A stretch of 10,210 nucleotides of DNA from UHGV virus genome UHGV-0225709, one strand, 5' to 3'. Under the pieces are notes generated by a model, which was not told the DNA's origin, ran no database searches, and saw nothing but the letters and a program-made list of their open reading frames with translations. The position numbers were made by a program, and so were the translations under genes. Source of the stretch: a virus. This document shows, piece by piece, positions 1 through 10,117 of the stretch. Numbering within the stretch: the first letter of the stretch is position 1; every line of letters begins with the position of its first letter.

Positions 1-369
1 TTTTGTCATGACATCAACCCAATTCTTAATACCAGGAATCTCGGTTACTGGACAACTCATATCCCAATAACCAGCCTGTTCCCACGTTAAAACGGGCAAC
101 CGGGCGATGTTGTCACTAATGTAAGGGTACTGATTCAGACGCAGATCATCGGCTTTATCGTGACCGTCCTTTCCATAAAGAATCCATTCAGGAGATTTGG
201 AAAGCAATTTTGACAGTAGATACAAATTCTCACCGTCAGGTTTTGAAGAGCCATTTTCCCATTTTGTTACGGATACACGAGATATGCCGATTGCTTTCGC
301 AACCTGCTGTTGGGTTAATCCAACGTCTTTTCGACGATTCCGAATACGTTCGCTGATAGTGTTTTTCAT
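1..369 (-). CDS. cI: Phage repressor, lambda-cI-like with LexA/S24-type C-terminal domain (partial; the C-terminus lies beyond the window start)
   Basis: Reverse-strand reading frame is open from ATG (complement of 367-369) to the window edge, 123 codons with no stop. The translation begins MKNTISERIRNRRKDVGLTQQQVAKAIGISRVSVTKWENG, a typical XRE/Cro-C1 helix-turn-helix. It continues ...RLPVLTWEQAGYWDMS..., which resembles the lambda cI hinge around its Ala-Gly RecA-stimulated autocleavage site. Absent from the ORF track because it is truncated. Divergent from the downstream cro-like gene. Confidence 0.8.
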   Translation of the reverse strand, partial: MKNTISERIRNRRKDVGLTQQQVAKAIGISRVSVTKWENGSSKPDGENLYLLSKLLSKSPEWILYGKDGHDKADDLRLNQYPYISDNIARLPVLTWEQAGYWDMSCPVTEIPGIKNWVDVMTK

Positions 370-460
370 GTAACCAATGTTACTACCAAGTGATGTTGCT
401 ATGGTTGACATTGTTATGTAACTATTGTTACCCTTTTGCTCGAAATAACAGGAGAGTTTT
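370..460. promoter_or_regulatory. Divergent immunity promoter/operator region between repressor and cro-like gene
   Basis: A 91 bp non-coding gap lies between divergent regulator genes. Two copies of the 14 bp dyad GTAAC-N4-GTTAC occur at 370-383 (gtaaccaatgttac) and 418-431 (gtaactattgttac). A TTGACA hexamer sits at 405-410. The SD ggagag at 444-449 precedes ATG 461. I could not pair the -35 with a convincing -10. Confidence 0.55.
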
Positions 461-676
461 ATGTTCAAAGATGATGTTCTGCGCTATTTCAAAAAAAAGC
501 GACTAGTAGCTGAGGCTCTTGGAATTTCACATGTGGCTGTTGTGCGGTGGAAAGCAGTTATTCCCAAACTTCGCGCAATGGAACTGGATGAAATTACTAA
601 CGGTGAATTGAAATACAACCCAGAACTTTACAAGAAGCAGGATAGCACCTCAAACGAAGGAAAGAATGATTCATGA
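461..676 (+). CDS. cro: Cro-like small DNA-binding regulator (HTH)
   Basis: 71-aa ORF with SD ggagag 12 nt upstream. The motif KKRLVAEALGISHVAVVRWKA is a classic Cro/C1-type HTH. Position immediately divergent from the repressor gene. The stop overlaps the next start (ATGA at 673-676). Confidence 0.75.
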   Translation: MFKDDVLRYFKKKRLVAEALGISHVAVVRWKAVIPKLRAMELDEITNGELKYNPELYKKQDSTSNEGKNDS

Positions 677-1098
677 AAATCAAGCATGAACACATCCGCA
701 TGGCGATGAATGTCTGGGCGCATCCGGACGGCGAAAAAGTACCGGCTGCGAAAATTACCAAAGCGTATTTCGAGCTGGGAATGACGTTCCCGGAACTGTA
801 TGACGACAGCCATCCGGAAGCCCTGGCCCGTAATACCCAGAAAATTTTCCGCTGGGTAGAGAAAGACACCCCTGATGCAGTTGAAAAAATTCAGGCGTTG
901 TTACCAGCGATCGAAAAGGCAATGCCACCTTTGCTGGTGGCCAGAATGCGCAGCCACAGTTCAGCTTATTTTCGGGAGCTGGTGGAGACGCGGGAGCGAC
1001 TGGTGAGAGACGCTGATGATTTTGTCGCAGTGGCAATCGCCGGTTTCAATCAGATGAACCGTGGTGGCCCGGCAGGAAATGCTGTGGCAGTACATTGA
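673..1098 (+). CDS. CII-like phage regulatory protein (YdaT/CP76-like by recollection); function inferred from position
   Basis: 141-aa ORF translationally coupled to the cro-like gene by an ATGA overlap, with SD aaggaaag at 657-664. The product (MKIKHEHIRMAMNVW...) resembles, from memory, the protein encoded after cro-like ydaS in Rac-type prophages. Family assignment not verified. Confidence 0.55.
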   Translation: MKIKHEHIRMAMNVWAHPDGEKVPAAKITKAYFELGMTFPELYDDSHPEALARNTQKIFRWVEKDTPDAVEKIQALLPAIEKAMPPLLVARMRSHSSAYFRELVETRERLVRDADDFVAVAIAGFNQMNRGGPAGNAVAVH

Positions 1099-1169
1099 CT
1101 GACAATAGCCATGTCGAATCGCTTCCGGCAACTCGTGAGTAAAAAGATTCGGTATCAGAAGAGGTGAGT

Positions 1170-2240
1170 ATGGCTAACGCCTGGCTCAGATTATGGCATG
1201 ACATGCCAAATGACCCTAAGTGGCGAACAATTGCCAGGGTGTCAGGGCAGCCAATTGCAACAGTGATGGCAGTATATATCCACCTCCTGGTGAGCGCGTC
1301 ACGAAATGTCACGCGAGGTCACATTGATGTCACGACAGAAGATTTGGCAAGTGCGCTCGACGTGACAGAAGAGGTAATTGATTCAATTTTGCAGACGATG
1401 CAGGGGCGGGTACTTGATGGTGATTTAATCACTGGATGGGAAAAACGCCAGGTGCTGAAAGAGGACAACGGCAATATTTCGCAAACCGCAAAATCTCCGG
1501 CAGAGCGCAAGAGGGCGCAGCGAGAGAGGGAAAGAAAGCGGGAACAAAATGGCGATTGTCACGGCGAGTCACGAAATGTCACGCACATGTCACGACGAGT
1601 CACGACAGATAAAGATACAGATAAAGATACAGATCAAGAAGATCAAAACACTATGGTCCATGGCGTAAAAAACGCCACGAACCAGGCAGGGGATGTTCAG
1701 ACCGTCAATCTCGGTCAGCCAGCAGGCACGACACCGGAAGCCGATTCAGCGTATGCGCTGAAAGCCGATTCGGGCGCTGTGCAGCAGGTGATGACCGCAA
1801 GGCAGGAGCAATCACACCAACTTCAGCAGCCTGAAGCCGATTCCGCCATTCAGCGGGAAGCCGATCGGGTAGTCCCGGAAAACACCGGTCAGTCTGTGGG
1901 ACGAGTGGATTATCCGGATGTGTTCGAACAGGTCTGGCGGGAGTACCCGTTGCGTGCCGGAGCAAACCCGAAGAAATCCGCTTTCAGTGCCTGGAAGGCC
2001 AGATTACGCGAGGGGGTGCCACCAGAGGCCATGCTGGATGGCGTGAGGCGTTACGCAAGATACCTGGCGGCTACCGGGAAAGCGGGAACGGAATTTGTTC
2101 AGCGAGCGACGACGTTTTTTGGACCGGACCGGAATTTTGAGAACCCCTGGTTTCTCCCGGTAAGCGGCACGAACAACCAGCGTTGTGTGAATCATATTAC
2201 TGAACCGGATAACGAAATTCCGCCGGGCTTCAGGGGGTAA
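1170..2240 (+). CDS. Phage replication initiation protein (lambda-O-like organisation, iterons embedded in the gene)
   Basis: 356-aa ORF taking ATG 1170 (the track begins at GTG 1164), with SD gaggtg at 1161-1166. N-terminal region WLRLWHDMPNDPKWRTIARVSGQPIATVMAVY. C-terminal region DYPDVFEQVWREYPLRAGANPKKSAFSAWKARL...GVRRYARYLAATGKAGTEFVQRATTFFGPDRNFENPWFLP matches a motif I recall from phage replication initiator/primosomal-type proteins. Contains iteron arrays and an AT-rich tandem repeat (see repeat features). Sits in the position of P2 gene A. Confidence 0.7.
   Translation: MANAWLRLWHDMPNDPKWRTIARVSGQPIATVMAVYIHLLVSASRNVTRGHIDVTTEDLASALDVTEEVIDSILQTMQGRVLDGDLITGWEKRQVLKEDNGNISQTAKSPAERKRAQRERERKREQNGDCHGESRNVTHMSRRVTTDKDTDKDTDQEDQNTMVHGVKNATNQAGDVQTVNLGQPAGTTPEADSAYALKADSGAVQQVMTARQEQSHQLQQPEADSAIQREADRVVPENTGQSVGRVDYPDVFEQVWREYPLRAGANPKKSAFSAWKARLREGVPPEAMLDGVRRYARYLAATGKAGTEFVQRATTFFGPDRNFENPWFLPVSGTNNQRCVNHITEPDNEIPPGFRG
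1298..1334. repeat. Iteron cluster 1: four GTCAC(G) repeats at 10-11 bp phasing (putative origin element)
   Basis: GTCAC begins at 1298, 1308, 1318 and 1329. An inverted copy CGTGAC lies at 1361-1366. The 17-mer gtcacgaaatgtcacgc at 1298-1314 recurs exactly at 1568-1584. Confidence 0.7.
1558..1650. repeat. Iteron cluster 2 (five GTCACG repeats at 10-11 bp phasing) followed by an AT-rich tandem repeat; putative phage origin of replication inside the rep gene
   Basis: GTCACG at 1558, 1568, 1578, 1589 and 1599. Immediately followed by gataaagataca twice in tandem (1608-1631) and then gatcaagaagatcaaaac. This lies in the region encoding an acidic linker (DKDTDKDTDQEDQ). The arrangement parallels ori-lambda within gene O (iterons followed by an AT-rich unwinding region). 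Confidence 0.7.
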
Positions 2241-2280
2241 GTGTTAATTTCTGGTCATGAGGTAATTTTCAGGAGGGCTT

Positions 2281-2703
2281 GTGGCAAAAGTTTTTACACA
2301 AGAAGAGCGGGAAAAAATTAAAGGGCTGATCGTGGAATTCGTACGCCTTAACGGACGAGGCACGATTCGGCAGTTATCGGATGAAATTGGTGTCAGTCAT
2401 GCGTCTGTCGGTCGTTTATGCATGGAGCTGGCCGCCAGTGGTGATGTTTACAATTCCGGTTACGGAGTATTCCCGTCTGAGCAGGCGCGCAAGGACTGGC
2501 AAAACGCCCGCAAAAAACTCTCAAGGGCAAAGCTGAAGAAACCATCTGTGGTTGATCCGGACCTTATCTGGCTATTACCAGACGGCGAAATACGCCGCTA
2601 CGACAGGCGCCTAAACATAATCTGTCGCGAGTGCCGGAAGAGTGAAGCTATGCAGCGTGTACTGGCTTTCTATCAGGGTAATTTTCAGGAGACGGTACTG
2701 TGA
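2281..2703 (+). CDS. Hypothetical protein with a probable winged-HTH N-terminus and a single C-terminal CxxC
   Basis: 140-aa ORF starting at GTG 2281 with a strong SD aggagg at 2271-2276. GTIRQLSDEIGVSHASVGRLCMELAASG looks like an HTH; followed by a basic stretch (ARKKLSRAKLKK) and CRECRK. No confident family assignment. Confidence 0.6.
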   Translation: MAKVFTQEEREKIKGLIVEFVRLNGRGTIRQLSDEIGVSHASVGRLCMELAASGDVYNSGYGVFPSEQARKDWQNARKKLSRAKLKKPSVVDPDLIWLLPDGEIRRYDRRLNIICRECRKSEAMQRVLAFYQGNFQETVL

Positions 2704-2760
2704 GTGAAATTAGCTATCAGGCTTCAATTACCGCTGGCATTCGCATCAAAGGAGAGGAGC

Positions 2761-3117
2761 ATGGAAATAAAACCAGAGGATGAGTTAAGCAATATCGTTT
2801 TATTTCCGGTAAAAGAGGATGACCCTCGTAATCAGGTTAATTTTCTTTATGAGCCATCGGAAAGACCATATTGTCATCACGCCTCTGTCCGGGTTGACGA
2901 AAAAGAGCGTCAGGTCCGCTGTAAAATCTGCGGTGCAGTTGTGGAGCCGTTTGACTGGATACTCTCTGTGGCGAAAAGAGAAACCAGACTGGCAGATGAT
3001 GTAAGGCTATTGCGCCAGGAGGAACAGGAAAGGCGGAAAAATATAGAAAAGTTAATTCAGATTGAGCGTAACGCGAAAGCGCGGATACGCAGGGCGACAA
3101 AATCCAGAACTGAATAA
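2761..3117 (+). CDS. Hypothetical protein with a putative zinc ribbon (C-x17-CxxC) and a charged, probably coiled-coil C-terminus
   Basis: ATG 2761 preceded by SD aggag at 2750-2754. Product MEIKPEDELSN...CHHASVRVDEKERQVRCKICGAV...RLLRQEEQERRKNIEKLIQIERNAKARIRR. The track ORF starts at GTG 2704 in the same frame; that alternative start is not excluded and is 12 nt downstream of a second copy of the ggtaattttcaggag element. Confidence 0.6.
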   Translation: MEIKPEDELSNIVLFPVKEDDPRNQVNFLYEPSERPYCHHASVRVDEKERQVRCKICGAVVEPFDWILSVAKRETRLADDVRLLRQEEQERRKNIEKLIQIERNAKARIRRATKSRTE

Positions 3118-3167
3118 ATAAATTTAGAGCTGTAAATAAAATCTAATCCTTAACTGGAGGTATATTT

Positions 3168-3380
3168 ATGTTAAATACACAGAAAGCCATTAATGCGGAA
3201 AAATATAACGAGTGGGCAAGAAAATTCTCTGAGCAGATTTTTAAAATTACTGGCGATGAGAATGCGGCAAAAAATGAATTAGAACCGTGGACGCCTGAAG
3301 GAGCCGACTCAAATTATTGCTGGAGGGAGGTTGATCCAGTTGATGCTGCAAATGAAGCTATGAGTTATTACAACGATTAA
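3168..3380 (+). CDS. Small acidic hypothetical protein (70 aa); first gene of the AT-rich cargo segment
   Basis: ATG 3168 with SD ctggagg 6-12 nt upstream. The product has 14 Asp+Glu against 7 Lys+Arg by my count. Lies in markedly AT-rich DNA. Confidence 0.6.
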   Translation: MLNTQKAINAEKYNEWARKFSEQIFKITGDENAAKNELEPWTPEGADSNYCWREVDPVDAANEAMSYYND

Positions 3381-3390
3381 TGTCAGGAGG

Positions 3391-3406
3391 CCGCCCGAAA
3401 GGGCGG
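3391..3406 (+). other. Perfect 6 bp GC stem with GAAA tetraloop (ccgccc-gaaa-gggcgg) directly after an AGGAGG and before two ATGs
   Basis: Seen directly: aggagg 3385-3390, stem 3391-3396 / 3401-3406, ATGs at 3409 and 3413. No U-tract follows, so it is not a canonical intrinsic terminator. May be an RNA processing or translational control element. Confidence 0.5.
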
Positions 3407-3492
3407 TAATGAATGGTCACATTATTTAGAAAAAATATCCGCGAAAGAGTAGAACAACAGAATTTCTGTTTCTCATTCTGTTTATCGTGTTG

Positions 3493-3630
3493 ATGATACC
3501 GATATCCCCGCTAATCCTAGTCTGGATAATCGGAAAAATAATTGAGCCAGTTATTGAATTGTATAACGACGTGGTATGGGCGTCATTCAACACACTGCAC
3601 AATAAAATTAATCCGTATAAGGAAAACTGA
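3493..3630 (+). CDS. Candidate small hydrophobic (single-pass membrane?) peptide, 45 aa
   Basis: ATG 3493 overlaps the stop of a 26-codon upstream ORF (3413-3493) in a TGATG arrangement. Its own stop TGA 3628-3630 sits 1 nt before ATG 3632 of the next gene. Product MIPISPLILVWIIGKIIEPVIELYNDVVWASFNTLHNKINPYKEN has a hydrophobic N-terminal half. Too short for the ORF track. No classical SD of its own, so expression would depend on coupling. Confidence 0.4.
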   Translation: MIPISPLILVWIIGKIIEPVIELYNDVVWASFNTLHNKINPYKEN

Positions 3631-3631
3631 T

Positions 3632-3895
3632 ATGGCAACTTTGACAAAAAAAGAACGGGCATGGTTGAACGAATTACAGGAAGTTCTTGATCGCTGTCCA
3701 TCACCGAAAAAAATTGGCTTTTACACCATTGGCGATAAAAGCATTTACCTGTATGACCTACGCCGCATGGATGAAATCATGGAGGCTCTTGATAATCGTT
3801 CGTCAATGGATTGGTGTGTTGCTGTCCATGATATGAATGCAGGGTTTGATGAAAAGATTTTGTTCCCCTCATCAGTTGAAAGCACAGCAGGATAA
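3632..3895 (+). CDS. Hypothetical small protein (87 aa), last gene before the terminator
   Basis: ATG 3632 with SD aagga at 3619-3623. The track ORF begins at TTG 3542 in the same frame, but the internal ATG with SD is the better start. Product MATLTKKERAWLNELQEVLDRCPSPKKIGFYTIGDKSIYLYDLRRMDEIMEALDNRSS... Followed 37 nt later by an intrinsic terminator. Confidence 0.6.
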   Translation: MATLTKKERAWLNELQEVLDRCPSPKKIGFYTIGDKSIYLYDLRRMDEIMEALDNRSSMDWCVAVHDMNAGFDEKILFPSSVESTAG

Positions 3896-3931
3896 GGACC
3901 CAGCAAATATACACAACCTATAAAACACTAA

Positions 3932-3956
3932 AGCGCCTCAGGGGCGCTTTTTGTTT
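3932..3956 (+). terminator. Rho-independent terminator closing the rightward early/cargo operon
   Basis: Stem agcgcc (3932-3937), loop tcagg, stem ggcgct (3943-3948), followed by tttttgttt. Confidence 0.75.
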
Positions 3957-3982
3957 GCACAAAAGTGCACAAATTTGCACAA
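3956..3982. repeat. Three direct TGCACAA repeats at exactly 10 bp phasing, followed by a T7 tract
   Basis: TGCACAA at 3956-3962, 3966-3972 and 3976-3982. Helical phasing puts the sites on one DNA face. Candidate protein-binding array (small terminase/cosB-like or a regulator). Confidence 0.5.
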
Positions 3983-4052
3983 TTTTTTTGAACGACTTTT
4001 TACCCTTCCGGCCCGCATGGCGGCTGGATCCGTCAAGGATCCGTGCGTGCAC

Positions 4053-4076
4053 AAAAAAACGCGCTTTTTCTGCGCG
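4053..4076 (-). terminator. Candidate Rho-independent terminator for leftward transcription (short stem)
   Basis: On the minus strand: CGCGC-agaaaaa-GCGCG followed by TTTTTTT (plus-strand aaaaaaa at 4053-4059). The stem is only 5 bp, so moderate confidence. Convergent with the plus-strand terminator at 3932-3956. Confidence 0.45.
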
Positions 4077-4353
4077 CAGGTGACGGGGGAACAGCCCGCG
4101 TTTCAGGGGGTAAATAGCATTCCCTGAACGATGTCGCAGAGATACAACAGAATGGCTGTATTTCTCACGCTGAGCGTGAAAAAGACGTGAGGGCTTTTGA
4201 TTTGATGGGGTGAAAGGTAAGGCCGTCAAAATCGCACTGAGACGGCGAGAACATGCAGTCAACGCGGTGGGATTGCGTAAGAGTCTGACTGTCGATGATG
4301 GCAATCAGCAGGAAAGCGTCGTGAAATTATCTGATTGATACAGGAGCTGGAGA

Positions 4354-4382
4354 GCCGGGGCATAAATTTTTTATGCCCCGGC
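4354..4382. other. Inverted repeat / hairpin immediately downstream of the portal gene
   Basis: gccggggcat (4354-4363) pairs with atgccccggc (4373-4382), extendable through flanking A/T. Lies 25 nt past the Q-like stop. No clear U-tract on either strand. Confidence 0.45.
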
Positions 4383-4406
4383 GAAGCAGCAGACAAGCGA
4401 AGCGCG

Positions 4407-5453
4407 TCAGGATGTGGGCTGGGTGTCTAACAGTGCGTAAGGGTTAAAGCGGATCACCTTTTCGCCAAGCCAGTCATTGATGTGCTTCATGGCCTCCATG
4501 ACGGGCATCAGTTCGTTAATTGCGTAAACCCGCGCGGCCTTCTCCACATCACCAAACGCACTTTTTTCGCCCGGCATCGCCCCCATCAGTTGCGGCGGAA
4601 CGCGGTGCGCAGCCAGCACATCATCACGGGATGCCGCCTTAACATTCATGAACTCATCCTTTGCGGTGATCTGCTGGAACGGCAAAATTTGCACCCCCTC
4701 TTTGCCCCCGTTGGGCGCATGAATGAGCACGTTTTTAAACGCACCGCCACCACGCGCACCCTGTAACGTTTCTTTCAGGGAGTCCATGCTTTCGCGGTTT
4801 ACCTGCGCTGCACCGATGTAGATGATGCACCCGGCATGGGATCCGTTGTCGTAATACAGTTTTCTGAACATGTCCGCCGAATGAGACAGGCTGGCCGAGA
4901 GTAATGCGCCAAGATATTCCGGCATGCCGTAGATTTCCTGGTTAATGTCAGGATTCATCAGGTGGCACACTTTGCCTGGGCGAAACTGAAACGCATCCTT
5001 ACCATCCTGCACATACCACCATGATTCAAGATCGCTTCCGCGTCGCATGTATTTCGCTAGGGCGTGCCGTAATTTAAGCGGTTCGCCGAGCATATTGCTT
5101 CGAAGCTCAAGGAATGCGTTACCGAACACAAACCAGTCCAGCGCCAGCGCCGAGAAATCCTGCCGGGAAAGCAGCGGGTGCGGGATGTAGCAACCGAGTA
5201 ATACATTGCGCTTAAAGTAAAGCGCAGACTGATGCCAGGACGTTTGCCGGGCAGCTCTTGCCAGACCGTACCAGTCCACCGGTGTTTCATACCACCGCCC
5301 GTTATCAGCACAGTACATATTGTCCAGCAAATCATGCCCGGTCAGGCGATAAGGACCATCAAATGTGAATGCACTGAGCGATGATTCTTTCCTGAGCGCA
5401 TCAGCGAGATCAATGCGTGAACTCATGCGCACTTTTTTATTTTTTCTGCTCAT
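4407..5453 (-). CDS. Q: Portal protein, P2 gpQ-like
   Basis: 348-aa ORF on the minus strand with SD GGAG 5 nt upstream of its ATG (complement of 5451-5453). Size and position (adjacent to and co-oriented with large terminase, next to the cos region) match P2 Q. The start overlaps the terminase stop (ATGA). Confidence 0.8.
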   Translation of the reverse strand: MSRKNKKVRMSSRIDLADALRKESSLSAFTFDGPYRLTGHDLLDNMYCADNGRWYETPVDWYGLARAARQTSWHQSALYFKRNVLLGCYIPHPLLSRQDFSALALDWFVFGNAFLELRSNMLGEPLKLRHALAKYMRRGSDLESWWYVQDGKDAFQFRPGKVCHLMNPDINQEIYGMPEYLGALLSASLSHSADMFRKLYYDNGSHAGCIIYIGAAQVNRESMDSLKETLQGARGGGAFKNVLIHAPNGGKEGVQILPFQQITAKDEFMNVKAASRDDVLAAHRVPPQLMGAMPGEKSAFGDVEKAARVYAINELMPVMEAMKHINDWLGEKVIRFNPYALLDTQPTS

Positions 5454-7204
5454 CAGAACTCCATAACCGTGAAACGCTCGTTTTCTCCTTCGCCGCCAAT
5501 TGGTTCGTTAATGACAGCAAGCATGGTTGCCCACGCAAGGTCGCCGTGGCTGATCCCCCTCGCGCGGTCCGTTTCGTAAGTGATAAAGCCGCCCGGTGTT
5601 TTCACCTTACGCACGGCGTTAAAGGCTGCGACCAGCTCGCGTTCGGCGCGATCGTATTCCCACCGCCCGGCACGCATTATTTGCAGCATTTTCAGTACCA
5701 GCGACCGTTTTGATGACAGCGTGAAGGTGTACGGAATAGCAGCAGGGAAAAACCGTTTCACTATCTGATAAACAGCCTCCCCGTTCCCGCCTGTCACATC
5801 AATGCCGATGTGTTCCACGTTGTAGCGACACGTGAACTCTTCAATGACTCTGGCCTGTTCTTCAAACTCCAGCCCCTGAACGCGTCGCGTCTCCACCGTT
5901 CGAAAACGGCCTCCAGGAACAGCCGGAGGAACCACCACGGACACAGCGCCGCTGTCGCCGTTTCCACTGCTGCCGTTTGCGTCATACCCAATCCATACCG
6001 GACGATTCCCCATCGGGCGGGGAGCAAAAGGTTTCCAGTCTTTCCAGTCGTCGTATCCGTCAACACCGCAGCCAATCAGGATATTCAGGTTAAATGCCGA
6101 TTCCCCTTCGCGGACAAACTCACACATATAGAGATTGAGGAACTCATCTTCGGTGTTTTCATCACGAATTTCGTCGATATCGGTGTGTTTCCAGCCGTGA
6201 TTAACCACATCTTCCAGCGTGACAATTTGCCGCCACGTCCGGTCAGGGCAGATAAGCCCGTTATGCAGCGTTTTCCAGTCCACAGAAAAACGCTGGCGTT
6301 TATGCGAGGCCTTTTTCTCGTTCCAGCGGTCGCCGTTCCAGTAGGCGTATGCCTCGTGCGTTTCGGTGGATGGCGTGGAAAAGTAGGTGCGCCGCAGTCC
6401 GCTGAGGGTTGCCATAGCGCCAGCCACCTTGCGCAGTTCAGCAAAGCGACTGACCCAGAAAAATTCATCAAAATAAAAATTGCCCGTATAGGACTGTGCC
6501 GACGCAGCAGAAGTGCCGAGAAAATGCAGCTCTGCGCCGTTGGAGAGGATGATTTTATCGCCCCCTTTCAGCTCCACATCAACTTCAGCCGCGGCCTTCT
6601 GAATAATGCTTTTAAACTGGAACGCCTGACGACGCGACGCAGACAAAAAAATCTGGTTACGCTGGTAAGGTTGCGCCACATCGTCACGCAGCGCCATCAG
6701 CAGAGCTTCCTGTGCAAAATACCAGGTCGCCCCAATCTGTCGGGATTTCAGGATCATCCTGTTACGTATCCCGGCTTCCCTGCAAAGGGTCAGGGTGTCA
6801 AACCAGCCCCGCTGATGCCACTCCAGCCTGCTGATGATTTTTTCCCGCAGTGCGGCAATCTGTTCCGGCGTGAAATGATTTTTGAGTTTTTTCGCCCGGC
6901 CTTTCTTTCCTGCGGCCGTCACATCCGGCTGGCCATCATGCAGCTTTTTAAGCTGCCGGGTCAGCAGGTCTATTTCCTTAAAGTCACCGCCTGTTTTATT
7001 CTGTTTTTCAGTAAGCTGGATGAGGCGCGCATCGATGGACTGCGTGACACGCTGCACGGGTGGCGTTTCATCCCACTGGTCGCGTTTTTTCCACGCATAA
7101 ATCGTGTTCGGGTTTATTCCCATCAGACGTGATATTTCTGCGGGCGGATAACCCTGCCAGTAAAGTTGCCGCGCACGCTGGCGCACAAAAGCGTCCTGAA
7201 TCAT
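5453..7204 (-). CDS. P: Terminase large (ATPase) subunit, P2 gpP-like
   Basis: 583-aa ORF. Contains a P-loop-like KSRQIGAT motif and acidic nuclease-domain-like segments. Length and position match P2 P (about 590 aa). SD agggggag upstream of the ATG (complement of 7202-7204). Confidence 0.85.
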   Translation of the reverse strand: MIQDAFVRQRARQLYWQGYPPAEISRLMGINPNTIYAWKKRDQWDETPPVQRVTQSIDARLIQLTEKQNKTGGDFKEIDLLTRQLKKLHDGQPDVTAAGKKGRAKKLKNHFTPEQIAALREKIISRLEWHQRGWFDTLTLCREAGIRNRMILKSRQIGATWYFAQEALLMALRDDVAQPYQRNQIFLSASRRQAFQFKSIIQKAAAEVDVELKGGDKIILSNGAELHFLGTSAASAQSYTGNFYFDEFFWVSRFAELRKVAGAMATLSGLRRTYFSTPSTETHEAYAYWNGDRWNEKKASHKRQRFSVDWKTLHNGLICPDRTWRQIVTLEDVVNHGWKHTDIDEIRDENTEDEFLNLYMCEFVREGESAFNLNILIGCGVDGYDDWKDWKPFAPRPMGNRPVWIGYDANGSSGNGDSGAVSVVVPPAVPGGRFRTVETRRVQGLEFEEQARVIEEFTCRYNVEHIGIDVTGGNGEAVYQIVKRFFPAAIPYTFTLSSKRSLVLKMLQIMRAGRWEYDRAERELVAAFNAVRKVKTPGGFITYETDRARGISHGDLAWATMLAVINEPIGGEGENERFTVMEF

Positions 7205-9316: not shown

Positions 9317-10117
9317 ATGATTACTCCTGCACAACAACACTGGCAGAACGTGATGGCACAGCGCGCAGGCCGGGCGAATGAAGGTGTGGACCACGCCGCG
9401 CGTACCGCGCATGAAGAGGTGCTGTATCGTCTGCGTCTGGCACAGGCCAGGCTAAAGGGCGTACAGGCCAGAAGCGCGAAAGCCGCCATCAAAAAAGAGT
9501 TGTTGCCGGATTTTTCCGGCTGGATTGAGGGAACGCTGGAAGCTGACGGCGGGCAGCAGGATGAAGTGATTGCCACGCTGATGGTGTGGGCGATTGACTG
9601 TGGCGATCTTCCGCTTGCGCTGCGTATCGGCGCGTATGTGGTCCATCACAACCTCATCATGCCGGATAACTTTGGCCGTACTGCTGCCACGGTACTGACC
9701 GAAGAAATCTGTAATCCGGTACTGACGCAGGCCGGGACGGATGCCGACGCGGATTTGTCCGCCTTTATCGAACCACTGGACACCCTCCGGGAGATTGTCA
9801 CCGACCAGGACATGCCGGACGAAGTGCGCGCCAAATTATGCAAAGCGTGCGCCTTTGCCCGCCGTGGCCTGACCGATGCGGACAGCATGGCCTCATCACT
9901 GAAGCTGCTGCGCGAAGCAATGCACCTGAACCCGAACGCAGGTGTGAAACGCGAGATTGCAACCCTTTCCCGCGCCCTGAAAAAAGCCGATTCCGCAGCC
10001 GCACCAGAAGATGCCAGCACACCGCAGGCGCAGGACGAAAGCAGCAAAAGTAAAAAGACAACGCGGAAGCCTGCAACACGAAAAACCACCGCGACGCAGA
10101 AGGCGAAGCGCGGTTAA
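9317..10117 (+). CDS. M: Terminase small (endonuclease) subunit, P2 gpM-like
   Basis: 266-aa ORF with SD ggagag at 9305-9310. N-terminus MITPAQQHWQNVMAQRA..., ...KKELLPDFSGWIEG... and a basic K/R-rich C-terminal tail are characteristic of P2 M-type small terminases. Gene order O-N-M. Confidence 0.8.
   Translation: MITPAQQHWQNVMAQRAGRANEGVDHAARTAHEEVLYRLRLAQARLKGVQARSAKAAIKKELLPDFSGWIEGTLEADGGQQDEVIATLMVWAIDCGDLPLALRIGAYVVHHNLIMPDNFGRTAATVLTEEICNPVLTQAGTDADADLSAFIEPLDTLREIVTDQDMPDEVRAKLCKACAFARRGLTDADSMASSLKLLREAMHLNPNAGVKREIATLSRALKKADSAAAPEDASTPQAQDESSKSKKTTRKPATRKTTATQKAKRG

What the first reader, a model, noticed from the sequence alone, without database searches (positions are those of the whole stretch)
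3957..4406. Probable cos region bracketed by convergent terminators, with a candidate cohesive-end sequence near 4079-4097
This roughly 450 bp stretch has no credible ORF and lies between the end of the rightward early operon and the end of the leftward Q-P operon, where P2-type phages carry cos. A minus-strand terminator-like hairpin with U7 is at 4053-4076. A GGATCCGT direct repeat occurs at 4026-4033 and 4037-4044, and a perfect palindrome CTGCGCGCAG at 4070-4079. The GC-rich 19-mer ggtgacgggggaacagccc (4079-4097) shares roughly two thirds of its positions with the P2 cohesive end as I recall it (GGCGAGGCGGGGAAAGCAC). That sequence is quoted from memory and may be wrong.
Basis: partly seen in the sequence, partly recalled or inferred. 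Interest (0 to 1): 0.45.

Follow-up and report, generated by a model that had tools for sequence, protein, structure and literature searches.

The report
Packaging (cos) site of P2-like prophage
This non-coding stretch is almost certainly the DNA-packaging (cos) site of a P88/P2-like prophage, an expected feature whose cut-site sequence is a common but apparently unmapped variant of the classic P2 one.

Summary
Its interpretation holds, but not for its reason: 13/19 identity to P2 is chance level, with two other such hits in the window.

The real support is comparative.
- The window is a P88-like (Xuanwuvirus) prophage. It has a P2-type portal, TerL, scaffold, capsid and TerS beside a lambdoid early module.
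- Four TGCACAA boxes lie at -123, -113, -103 and -31 from the 19-mer. P2 and P4 carry TGCAT boxes at about -123, -111, -101 and -29 from their mapped ends.
- Intermediate phages link GGTGACGGGGGAACAGCCC to GGCGAGGCGGGGAAAGCAC.
- With an anchor independent of the core, 4071-4100 is the most conserved block across 13 lineages.
- 99 of 107 viral-contig copies have a portal gene 0.2-1 kb to the right.
- The site occurs in 1140 of 5426 complete E. coli genomes.

The functional cos is about 3954-4130, not the whole 450 bp. The exact nicks are unresolved: 4079-4097 is the best single guess, and 4077-4095 or 4079-4095 fit equally well.

The GGATCC repeat and the minus-strand terminator-like hairpin are lineage-specific. 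The annotated 42-aa ORF is not coding.

Verdict: an ordinary new member of a known kind.

The parts
3930..3950 (+). Rho-independent terminator closing the rightward early operon. It marks the left mosaic boundary of the packaging module.
   Evidence: Scan found a 9-bp stem followed by TTGTTT. Homology with most P88-like phages starts at 3931-3956.
3956..3982 (+). Three TGCACAA boxes at 3956, 3966 and 3976, phased at 10 bp. They are the proposed terminase-binding array.
   Evidence: Boxes lie at -123, -113 and -103 from the 19-mer, against P2 at -123, -111, -101 and P4 at about -124, -111, -101. They are conserved across lineages.
3983..4013 (+). T7 run plus GA, then a conserved block TTTTTACCCTTCC-GCCC.
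   Evidence: Conservation profile across 13 class-2 lineages. TGCACAATTTTTTTGA retrieves cos-like loci in 96 of 117 hits.
4026..4044 (.). GGATCCGT direct repeat (two BamHI palindromes). It is lineage-specific spacer sequence.
   Evidence: family D5. Other lineages carry GCGGTCTGAG-type sequence here. The spacer is not more structured than shuffles.
4048..4059 (+). Fourth TGCACAA box plus an A-tract. It is the counterpart of TGCATTAAAACC in the P2/P4 55-bp core.
   Evidence: conservation at least 90%.
4059..4077 (-). Terminator-like hairpin (CGCGC/GCGCG stem) followed by T7 on the minus strand.
   Evidence: It is not maintained in type B or type C lineages. P2 and P4 have an analogous GC hairpin at this place.
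4071..4100 (.). cosN-like core, tGCGCGCAGGTGACGGGGGAACAGCCCgCG. Terminase nicking is predicted inside it.
   Evidence: It is the most conserved block with an anchor independent of the core. A 24-nt stretch is identical in Enterobacter phage phiT5282H amid diverged flanks.
4079..4097 (+). Best single guess for the 5' cohesive end, GGTGACGGGGGAACAGCCC. Alternatives are 4077-4095 and 4079-4095.
   Evidence: The context GCGCGCA|GG is identical to Kp4877-2. The AMSCJX04 variant is 15/19 to P2 without gaps. The box-anchored collinear frame gives 4077-4095 instead.
4102..4128 (.). G-rich right-hand block (GGGGGTAAATAG) within the inverted repeat TTCAGGG/CCCTGAA.
   Evidence: pair I9. A GGGG..TAGGG motif sits at the same distance in class-1 and class-2 lineages.
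4354..4382 (.). Perfect 13-bp inverted repeat just past the portal stop codon. It is the probable end of the Q-P transcript and has no U-tract.
   Evidence: pair I1. It was not called by the terminator scan. P2 has its tQ terminator at the equivalent place.
4407..5453 (-). Portal protein (gpQ homologue).
   Evidence: PF04860. It is 47% identical to P2 gpQ.
5453..7204 (-). Terminase large subunit (gpP homologue) with an N-terminal HTH domain.
   Evidence: PF06056, PF03237 and PF17289.
9317..10117 (+). Terminase small subunit (gpM homologue).
   Evidence: PF05944.

Best explanation
Window ~3954-4130 is the cos (cohesive-end, packaging) site of a P88-like, P2-family prophage.

Proposed mechanism:
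1. The phage terminase (gpM small subunit, gpP large subunit) assembles on replicated phage DNA at an array of TGCACAA boxes. Three are phased at 10 bp (3956-3982) and a fourth lies 72 bp further on (4048-4054).
2. The TerL nuclease then makes two staggered nicks inside the conserved core 4071-4100.
3. This gives G+C-rich 5' single-stranded ends. The best guess is GGTGACGGGGGAACAGCCC, 4079-4097.
4. DNA is threaded through the portal encoded immediately to the right.

Shown here: the gene families, the architecture shared with the mapped P2/P4 sites, the conservation profile, and the constant linkage to a portal gene.

Inferred: that the boxes are the terminase-binding element, which protein reads them, the exact nick positions, and the 19-nt length.

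My sub-estimates are about 0.9 that cleavage lies within 4071-4100 and about 0.4 that the overhang is exactly 4079-4097.
For: 1. Context. P2-type portal, TerL, gpO, gpN and gpM genes lie directly to the right. The site sits between the early-operon terminator and the Q stop codon, as in P2.

2. Architecture.
- Boxes lie at -123, -113, -103 and -31 in the window, phiT5282H, AMSCJX04 and two viral contigs.
- TGCAT boxes lie at -123/-124, -111, -101 and -29 in P2 and P4.
- P2 and P4 are otherwise dissimilar between the boxes.

3. Intermediates.
- The SEN5 record starts GGCGAGGCGGGGGAACGAG, preceded by TGCACAAAAAAG.
- Kp4877-2 has GCGCGCA|GGCGAGGCGGGGG.
- AMSCJX04 has GGTGACGGGGGGAAAGCCC, 15/19 to P2.
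- The mapped phiRSA1 end starts GGTGAGGCGGGG (PMC5694545).

4. Conservation.
- A 24-mer is identical in phiT5282H while the flanks diverge.
- Anchored on the box array alone, 96 of 117 loci have a cos-like core at the fixed distance, and 77 carry the identical 19-mer.
- The profile over 13 lineages peaks at 4048-4058 and 4071-4100.

5. Linkage. 99 of 107 cos-like viral-contig loci have a portal homologue 197-959 bp to the right. Seven of the other eight lack enough flank to tell.

6. Module behaviour. Homology with phages that carry a different early module starts exactly at the box array, 3931-3956.

7. Assembly breaks. Two genome-length metagenome contigs (32.5 and 31.8 kb) break 3 and 22 nt to the right of the 19-mer.
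Against: - No virion termini are mapped for any member of this sequence class.
- None of the phage records that matched starts at this sequence. Nucleotide 1 of P88_4B11 was set by its authors relative to reference genomes (PMC6969025).
- Direct similarity to P2 cos is at chance level.
- Anchored on the boxes, the core is shifted 2 bp relative to P2. Sequence context and distance therefore predict different nicks.
- Two virion-derived assemblies have 5-7 nt deletions inside the 19-mer: Chuche and P88_4B11. Either that part is dispensable or the assemblies are faulty there.
- The role of the boxes rests on conservation only.
Confidence: 0.88

Rival explanations
1. The stretch is only an intergenic spacer holding the convergent terminators of the early and Q-P operons. 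The real packaging site lies elsewhere in the prophage.
For: Terminator-like hairpins exist at 3930-3950 (+) and 4077-4059 (-), and a 13-bp inverted repeat lies after Q. Similarity of the 19-mer to P2 is not significant on its own.
Against: Terminators do not explain several observations.
- A 24-30 bp core stays invariant across genera while the hairpin next to it is not maintained.
- The boxes sit at the same distances as in P2 and P4.
- The site is always linked to a portal gene.
Confidence: 0.03
2. The phased TGCACAA repeats, A/T tracts and GC-rich core are a replication origin (iterons) or an operator array for a regulator, not a packaging signal.
For: Direct repeats at 10-bp phasing flanked by A/T runs resemble iteron origins.
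Against: - The array travels with the head and packaging genes. It is shared by phages with unrelated replication modules: lambdoid O-like in the window, and gpA endonuclease plus ParM in P88 and E. coli 4/0.
- The same box layout flanks the experimentally defined cohesive ends of P2 and P4. From my own knowledge, not checked here, the origins of those two phages lie elsewhere.
Confidence: 0.04
3. It is a cos site by descent, but this copy is inactive because the prophage is a decayed or cryptic hybrid.
For: The early module is lambdoid or Rac-like (YdaT, DUF977), unlike the inducible type phage P88. Whether this prophage is complete cannot be judged from 10 kb.
Against: - The 186-bp site is 100% identical to a copy in E. 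coli 4/0 (H118), where it lies in a prophage annotated with integrase, replication, head, lysis and tail genes.
- The 19-mer is the majority form, 77 of 101 array-anchored cos-like loci.
- The 19-mer and the following 42 nt are identical in the phage records 500465-2, vB_EcoM-569R5, vB_EcoM-705R2 and PhiR44_2. How those phages were obtained was not checked.
- All five packaging and head ORFs in the window are intact.
Confidence: 0.05

Closest known systems
cos site of coliphage P2 and its satellite P4 (19-nt 5' cohesive ends GGCGAGGCGGGGAAAGCAC; 55-bp shared core, Ziermann and Calendar 1990, as cited in PMC3931495 and PMC5694545)
   Same: - Position between the accessory/early region and the 3' end of portal gene Q.
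- Same terminase families.
- Three phased TGCAY boxes, plus a fourth box with an A-tract about 30 bp before a G-rich core.
- A GC hairpin between the fourth box and the core.
- The frame from the fourth box through CGGGG is collinear.
   Different: - The core differs at 6 of 19 positions (GGTGACGGGGGAACAGCCC).
- The boxes read TGCACAA, not TGCATT.
- The left nick context is shifted 2 bp relative to the boxes.
- About 310 bp, not 167 bp, separate the core from Q.
- The ends have not been mapped.
cos of Ralstonia phage phiRSA1 (mapped ends beginning GGTGAGGCGGGG; PMC5694545)
   Same: Both are P2-family cos sites whose cohesive end starts GGTGA rather than GGCGA.
   Different: phiRSA1 keeps the GGCGGGG centre of the P2 class, and its 3' half is unrelated.
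Predicted cos of Salmonella phage SEN5 and Klebsiella phage Kp4877-2 (Senquatrovirus, Reginaelenavirus)
   Same: - TGCACAA-type boxes.
- Identical left context GCGCGCA|GG in Kp4877-2.
- The same right-hand GGGGGTA/TAGGG motif at the same distance from the boxes.
- Portal 53-69% identical.
   Different: Their cores are of the P2 class (GGCGAGGCGGGGG). Their ends are set by analogy, not mapped.
Phage lambda cos (cosQ-cosN-cosB with R sites)
   Same: It works alike: a nicking site flanked by repeated terminase-binding elements, giving 5' cohesive ends.
   Different: There is no sequence or protein-family relationship (Nu1/A versus gpM/gpP). Lambda has a 12-nt overhang. In lambda the binding repeats lie on the terminase-gene side of cosN, whereas here they lie on the opposite side.

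Membership tests
P2-type (Peduoviridae) cos site | Lies between the early/accessory region and the 3' end of the leftward portal gene Q, next to the Q-P and O-N-M head genes. | tested here: met
   ORF map and Pfam hits. The P2 layout is given.
P2-type (Peduoviridae) cos site | Cognate gpM-type small and gpP-type large terminase subunits are encoded by the same element. | tested here: met
   PF05944, and PF06056 + PF03237 + PF17289. Identity to P2 gpM and gpP is 40% and 47%.
P2-type (Peduoviridae) cos site | Homology to the conserved core around the 19-nt G+C-rich cohesive sequence. | tested here: met
   Not detectable pairwise: 13/19 is chance level and local alignment found nothing. It is established through intermediates and a collinear box-anchored frame.
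P2-type (Peduoviridae) cos site | Repeated TGCAY boxes at fixed distances on the early-gene side of the core. This feature is derived here from P2 and P4; whether the literature treats it as defining is unknown to me. | tested here: met
   -123, -113, -103, -31 against -123, -111, -101, -29.
P2-type (Peduoviridae) cos site | Terminase cleavage in vivo yields 19-nt 5' protruding complementary ends. | not testable with these tools
   No mapped termini exist for this class. Record starts are arbitrary. The only indirect hint is two genome-length contigs breaking 3 and 22 nt to the right of the 19-mer.
P2-type (Peduoviridae) cos site | The site is sufficient for packaging or transduction of a plasmid by a helper phage. 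| not testable with these tools
   This needs an experiment.
Rho-independent terminator (minus strand, 4077-4053) | GC-rich stem-loop followed by a U-tract. | tested here: met
   6-pair stem (5 G-C pairs) followed by T7.
Rho-independent terminator (minus strand, 4077-4053) | The hairpin is maintained in related elements. | tested here: not met
   Stem positions mutate without compensation within the family. The hairpin is absent in type B and type C lineages, while the A-tract is kept.
Lambda-type cos | Nu1/A terminase and R-site cosB. | tested here: not met
   The terminase families are gpM/gpP. The resemblance is functional only.

The most novel reading that the evidence does not exclude
The GGTGACGGGGG core defines a second packaging-specificity class within the P2 family. 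It is present in about a fifth of complete E. coli genomes and in Klebsiella and Enterobacter prophages.

The phased TGCAY box array would be the universal terminase-docking element of Peduoviridae, P2 and P4 included. Nick placement would be set by a ruler from the boxes.
- The 2-bp loss in the core is compensated by 2 extra bp in the spacer, so the distance from the fourth box to CGGGGG and to the right-hand GGGGGTA motif is unchanged.
- On that reading the ends would be 4077-4095.

Satellites would have to match the class of their helper.
Probability: 0.3. Interest if true: 0.45.

Novelty: new member of a known kind. Interest (0 to 1): 0.27.

Why it matters
- It fixes the physical genome ends, and therefore the correct linear map, for a very common E. 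coli prophage family (Xuanwuvirus and relatives). GenBank records of this family currently start at arbitrary points.
- It gives a compact fragment of about 180 bp that should suffice to build cosmids or transducing particles for P88-type capsids.
- It shows that the P2/P4 cos architecture (phased boxes plus core) is conserved far beyond the 55-bp core usually quoted.
- It identifies a distinct core class, which may limit which satellites and helpers can cross-package.

None of this overturns current understanding.

Tried and rejected
1. Direct alignment to the P2 cos junction gave only chance matches.

2. I took the start of the P88_4B11 record (window 4000/4001) as a possible mapped end. I rejected it because the authors chose nucleotide 1 relative to reference genomes (PMC6969025).

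3. I looked for phage records, IMG/VR contigs or metagenome contigs that begin or end exactly at the 19-mer.
- None was found.
- Two genome-length contigs break 3 and 22 nt to its right.

4. A conserved hairpin in the 3983-4047 spacer, including the GGATCC pair, is not supported. Mean z was -0.6 across 39 lineages.

5. The 42-aa ORF 4210-4338 as a real gene is rejected.

6. Rfam gave nothing.

7. A literature search for the core string found no phage paper.

8. I compared terminase segments between core classes to find a specificity determinant. There was no clear signal.

9. I used dyad symmetry and the nick-context consensus to pin the nicks. The GC-repeat context gives several equally good solutions, so I did not rely on it.

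10. An IHF consensus in the T-run region fits only with non-canonical spacing. This was judged by eye and not pursued.

Full report
**Observation**

Reading 3700-4700 confirms every item at the stated coordinates.
- GGATCCGT lies at 4026-4033 and 4037-4044.
- CTGCGCGCAG lies at 4070-4079.
- ggtgacgggggaacagccc lies at 4079-4097.

The consensus scan independently reports three things.
- A plus-strand terminator at 3930-3950.
- A minus-strand stem at 4077-4059 followed by T7.
- No call on the 13-bp perfect inverted repeat at 4354-4382, which repeat finder lists.

NC_001895 annotates GGCGAGGCGGGGAAAGCAC as cosL and cosR.

The ungapped identity is 13/19. The same score occurs at two other plus-strand places in this 10-kb window, and a local alignment to the P2 cos junction finds nothing.

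**What the element is**

The window is part of a P88-like (Xuanwuvirus, Peduoviridae) prophage. To the right of the finding lie these genes:
- a portal (PF04860);
- a large terminase with a gpP-type N-terminal HTH domain plus ATPase and nuclease domains;
- gpO scaffold, gpN capsid and gpM small terminase.

They are 38-47% identical to their P2 counterparts.

To the left is a lambdoid or Rac-type early module (YdaT, DUF977). P88 does not share it. Homology with most P88-like phages begins at 3931-3956, at the terminator and first repeat.

**Architecture**

TGCACAA occurs six times in the window. Four of these are at 3956, 3966, 3976 and 4048. Measured from the first G of the 19-mer, they sit at -123, -113, -103 and -31.

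The same positions are found in Enterobacter phage phiT5282H, in a classical P2-like prophage of E. coli AMSCJX04, and in unrelated viral contigs.

P2 has TGCAT boxes at -123, -111, -101 and -29 from its mapped end. P4 has them at about -124, -111, -101 and -29. P2 and P4 share no other similarity between the distal boxes and the 55-bp core. The window therefore has the P2/P4 layout.

**Intermediate sequences**

- The Salmonella phage SEN5 record starts GGCGAGGCGGGGGAACGAG and ends ...TGCACAAAAAAGCGGGGTTTCTGCGTGCG.
- Klebsiella phage Kp4877-2 (portal 69% identical) reads GCGCGCA|GGCGAGGCGGGGGAGCAAG.
- AMSCJX04 reads GCGCGCA|GGTGACGGGGGGAAAGCCC, which is 15/19 to P2 without gaps.
- The mapped phiRSA1 end begins GGTGAGGCGGGG (PMC5694545).

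**Conservation**

A scan of IMG/VR with the 16-mer GCGCAGGTGACGGGGG returned about 107 cos-like loci in several lineages. Their flanks differ while the core is kept.
- 99 of them have a portal homologue 197-959 bp to the right.
- Seven of the other eight have too little flank to tell.

To avoid ascertainment on the core, I repeated the scan with the box-side motif TGCACAATTTTTTTGA.
- 96 of 117 hits carry a cos-like core at the fixed distance.
- 77 carry the identical 19-mer.
- Some carry P2-class cores.

Across 13 class-2 lineage representatives, conservation peaks at the box array, at 4048-4058 and at 4071-4100. It drops at 4059-4070 and after about 4101.

phiT5282H shares a 24-nt identical stretch, GCGCAGGTGACGGGGGAACAGCCC, and similarity ends right after it.

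Window 3950-4135 is present in 1140 of 5426 complete E. coli genomes.

**What is not part of the conserved site**

- The GGATCC pair is specific to the window lineage. Other lineages, and P4, carry a GCGGTCTGAG-type motif there. The spacer is not more structured than shuffled sequence.
- The minus-strand hairpin with U7 is real in this sequence. Its stem mutates without compensation within the family and is absent in other lineages, while the A-tract is kept.
- The 42-aa ORF 4210-4338 is annotated in P88 and P88_4B11. It has no codon-position bias in its substitutions (17/19/13) and has in-frame stops in some copies.
- Rfam finds nothing.
- The 300 bp between the core and Q differs between lineages. 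In E. coli 4/0 an extra 174-aa gene is inserted at the Q-proximal end of this stretch.

**Exact ends**

Anchored on the boxes, the class-1 and class-2 sequences are collinear. CGGGGG and the right-hand GGGGGTA motif fall in the same columns, and the difference is confined to about 14 bp, 4071-4084.

Relative to P2-class cores, the window has lost GG within the core and gained 2 bp in the variable spacer. Sequence context and distance therefore disagree.
- The sequence context GCGCGCA|GG, identical to Kp4877-2, puts the top-strand nick at 4078/4079.
- The distance from box 4, as in mapped P2, puts it at 4076/4077.
- The bottom-strand nick could be at 4095/4096 or 4097/4098.

I consider 4079-4097 the best single guess, at about 0.4.

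Two genome-length metagenome contigs (32,523 and 31,753 bp) break 3 and 22 nt to the right of the 19-mer. My rough estimate of the number expected by chance is about 0.03, taking about 23 such contigs counted by eye from the locus list. This fits physical ends here but does not fix them.

Two virion-derived assemblies carry different small deletions inside the 19-mer: Chuche 7 nt and P88_4B11 5 nt. None was seen among the prophage copies from IMG/VR listed. I cannot tell whether these deletions are real.

**Mechanism**

By homology with P2, gpM and gpP assemble at the site, TerL nicks both strands within the core to give 5' cohesive ends, and DNA enters the procapsid through the adjacent portal.

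The boxes being the docking element is an inference from three observations.
- Their phasing.
- Their conservation in both P2 and P4.
- Their co-inheritance with the head module rather than the replication module.

Which subunit reads them is unknown. The TerL N-terminal HTH is 82-87% identical among TGCACAA-box lineages over its first 40 residues (72-82% over residues 41-80). The corresponding figures against P2 are 33% and 62%. That is only a hint.

**Novelty and verdict**

No paper in the searchable library contains this core string in a phage context. The P88 paper showed no occurrence of 'cos' in the search table. The records for P88_4B11, P88, phiT5282H and Chuche that I opened carry no cos feature.

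A cos site at this position in a P2-like phage is nonetheless exactly what is expected. The finding is correct and useful for annotation. It is a new member of a known kind, and its interest is low to moderate.

Noticed in passing
window 4354-4382: A perfect 13-bp inverted repeat (GCCGGGGCATAAA / TTTATGCCCCGGC, 3-nt loop) lies 25 nt past the portal stop codon. It is highly conserved in the family but has no U-tract on either strand. It is probably the end or stabiliser of the Q-P transcript, equivalent in position to P2 tQ.
   Followed up: partly
window 4210-4338: A 42-aa GTG ORF is annotated as a hypothetical protein in P88 and P88_4B11. Its substitutions show no third-position excess (17/19/13), and in-frame stops or start loss occur in some copies. 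It is probably not a gene.
   Followed up: yes
L173 (Chuche) and L002 (P88_4B11), equivalent to window 4086-4100: Two virion-derived genome assemblies carry different small deletions (7 nt GGGAACA; 5 nt CCCGC plus A>G) inside the predicted cohesive end. No such deletion was seen in the prophage copies from IMG/VR that I listed. They may be assembly artefacts at physical ends, or real tolerated variants.
   Followed up: partly
L264 (PPYF01370356.1, 32,523 bp) and L280 (ERZ1643251 NODE-1134, 31,753 bp): Two metagenome contigs of phage-genome length terminate 3 and 22 nt to the right of the 19-mer. This is unlikely by chance and suggests physical ends here. Their other ends could not be retrieved.
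   Followed up: partly
L087 around 3250-3310: A P88-like prophage has an 82-bp deletion that joins TGCACAA box 2 directly to box 4. It removes box 3 and the whole spacer. It is a natural test of what the site needs.
   Followed up: no
L046 8735-8850 and flanks: A cos-like site (boxes plus GCGCAGGTGACGGGGGGG) has no portal homologue in the 3 kb to its right. The element encodes an integrase, an MBL-fold protein and a 420-aa P2-family capsid protein whose Pfam match begins at residue 116. It may be a satellite or a rearranged element.
   Followed up: partly
window 1-3900 versus L003, L175: The early region is lambdoid or Rac-like (YdaT-toxin domain, DUF977). P88 and E. coli 4/0 instead have a gpA-type replication endonuclease with ParM. 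The mosaic junction lies at 3931-3956, immediately left of the box array.
   Followed up: partly
L175 20462-21096; L294-L300: Variable small genes sit on both sides of cos in close relatives. A 174-aa ORF lies between cos and the portal in E. coli 4/0. DUF4760, zf-C4_ClpX and 87-153-aa ORFs lie on the other side. This matches the cos-adjacent cargo hotspot described for P2-like phages (PMC9122126).
   Followed up: partly
L132 ~275-290 (P4) and many class-2 loci, equivalent to window ~4018-4035: A GCGGTCTGAG motif in the spacer before box 4 is shared by P4 and most class-2 lineages. In the window's lineage it is replaced by GCGGCTGGATCCG. Its function is unknown.
   Followed up: no
L174 (phage 503458): This record shows single-base losses in several homopolymer runs across the cos region. 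They look like sequencing errors rather than biology.
   Followed up: no
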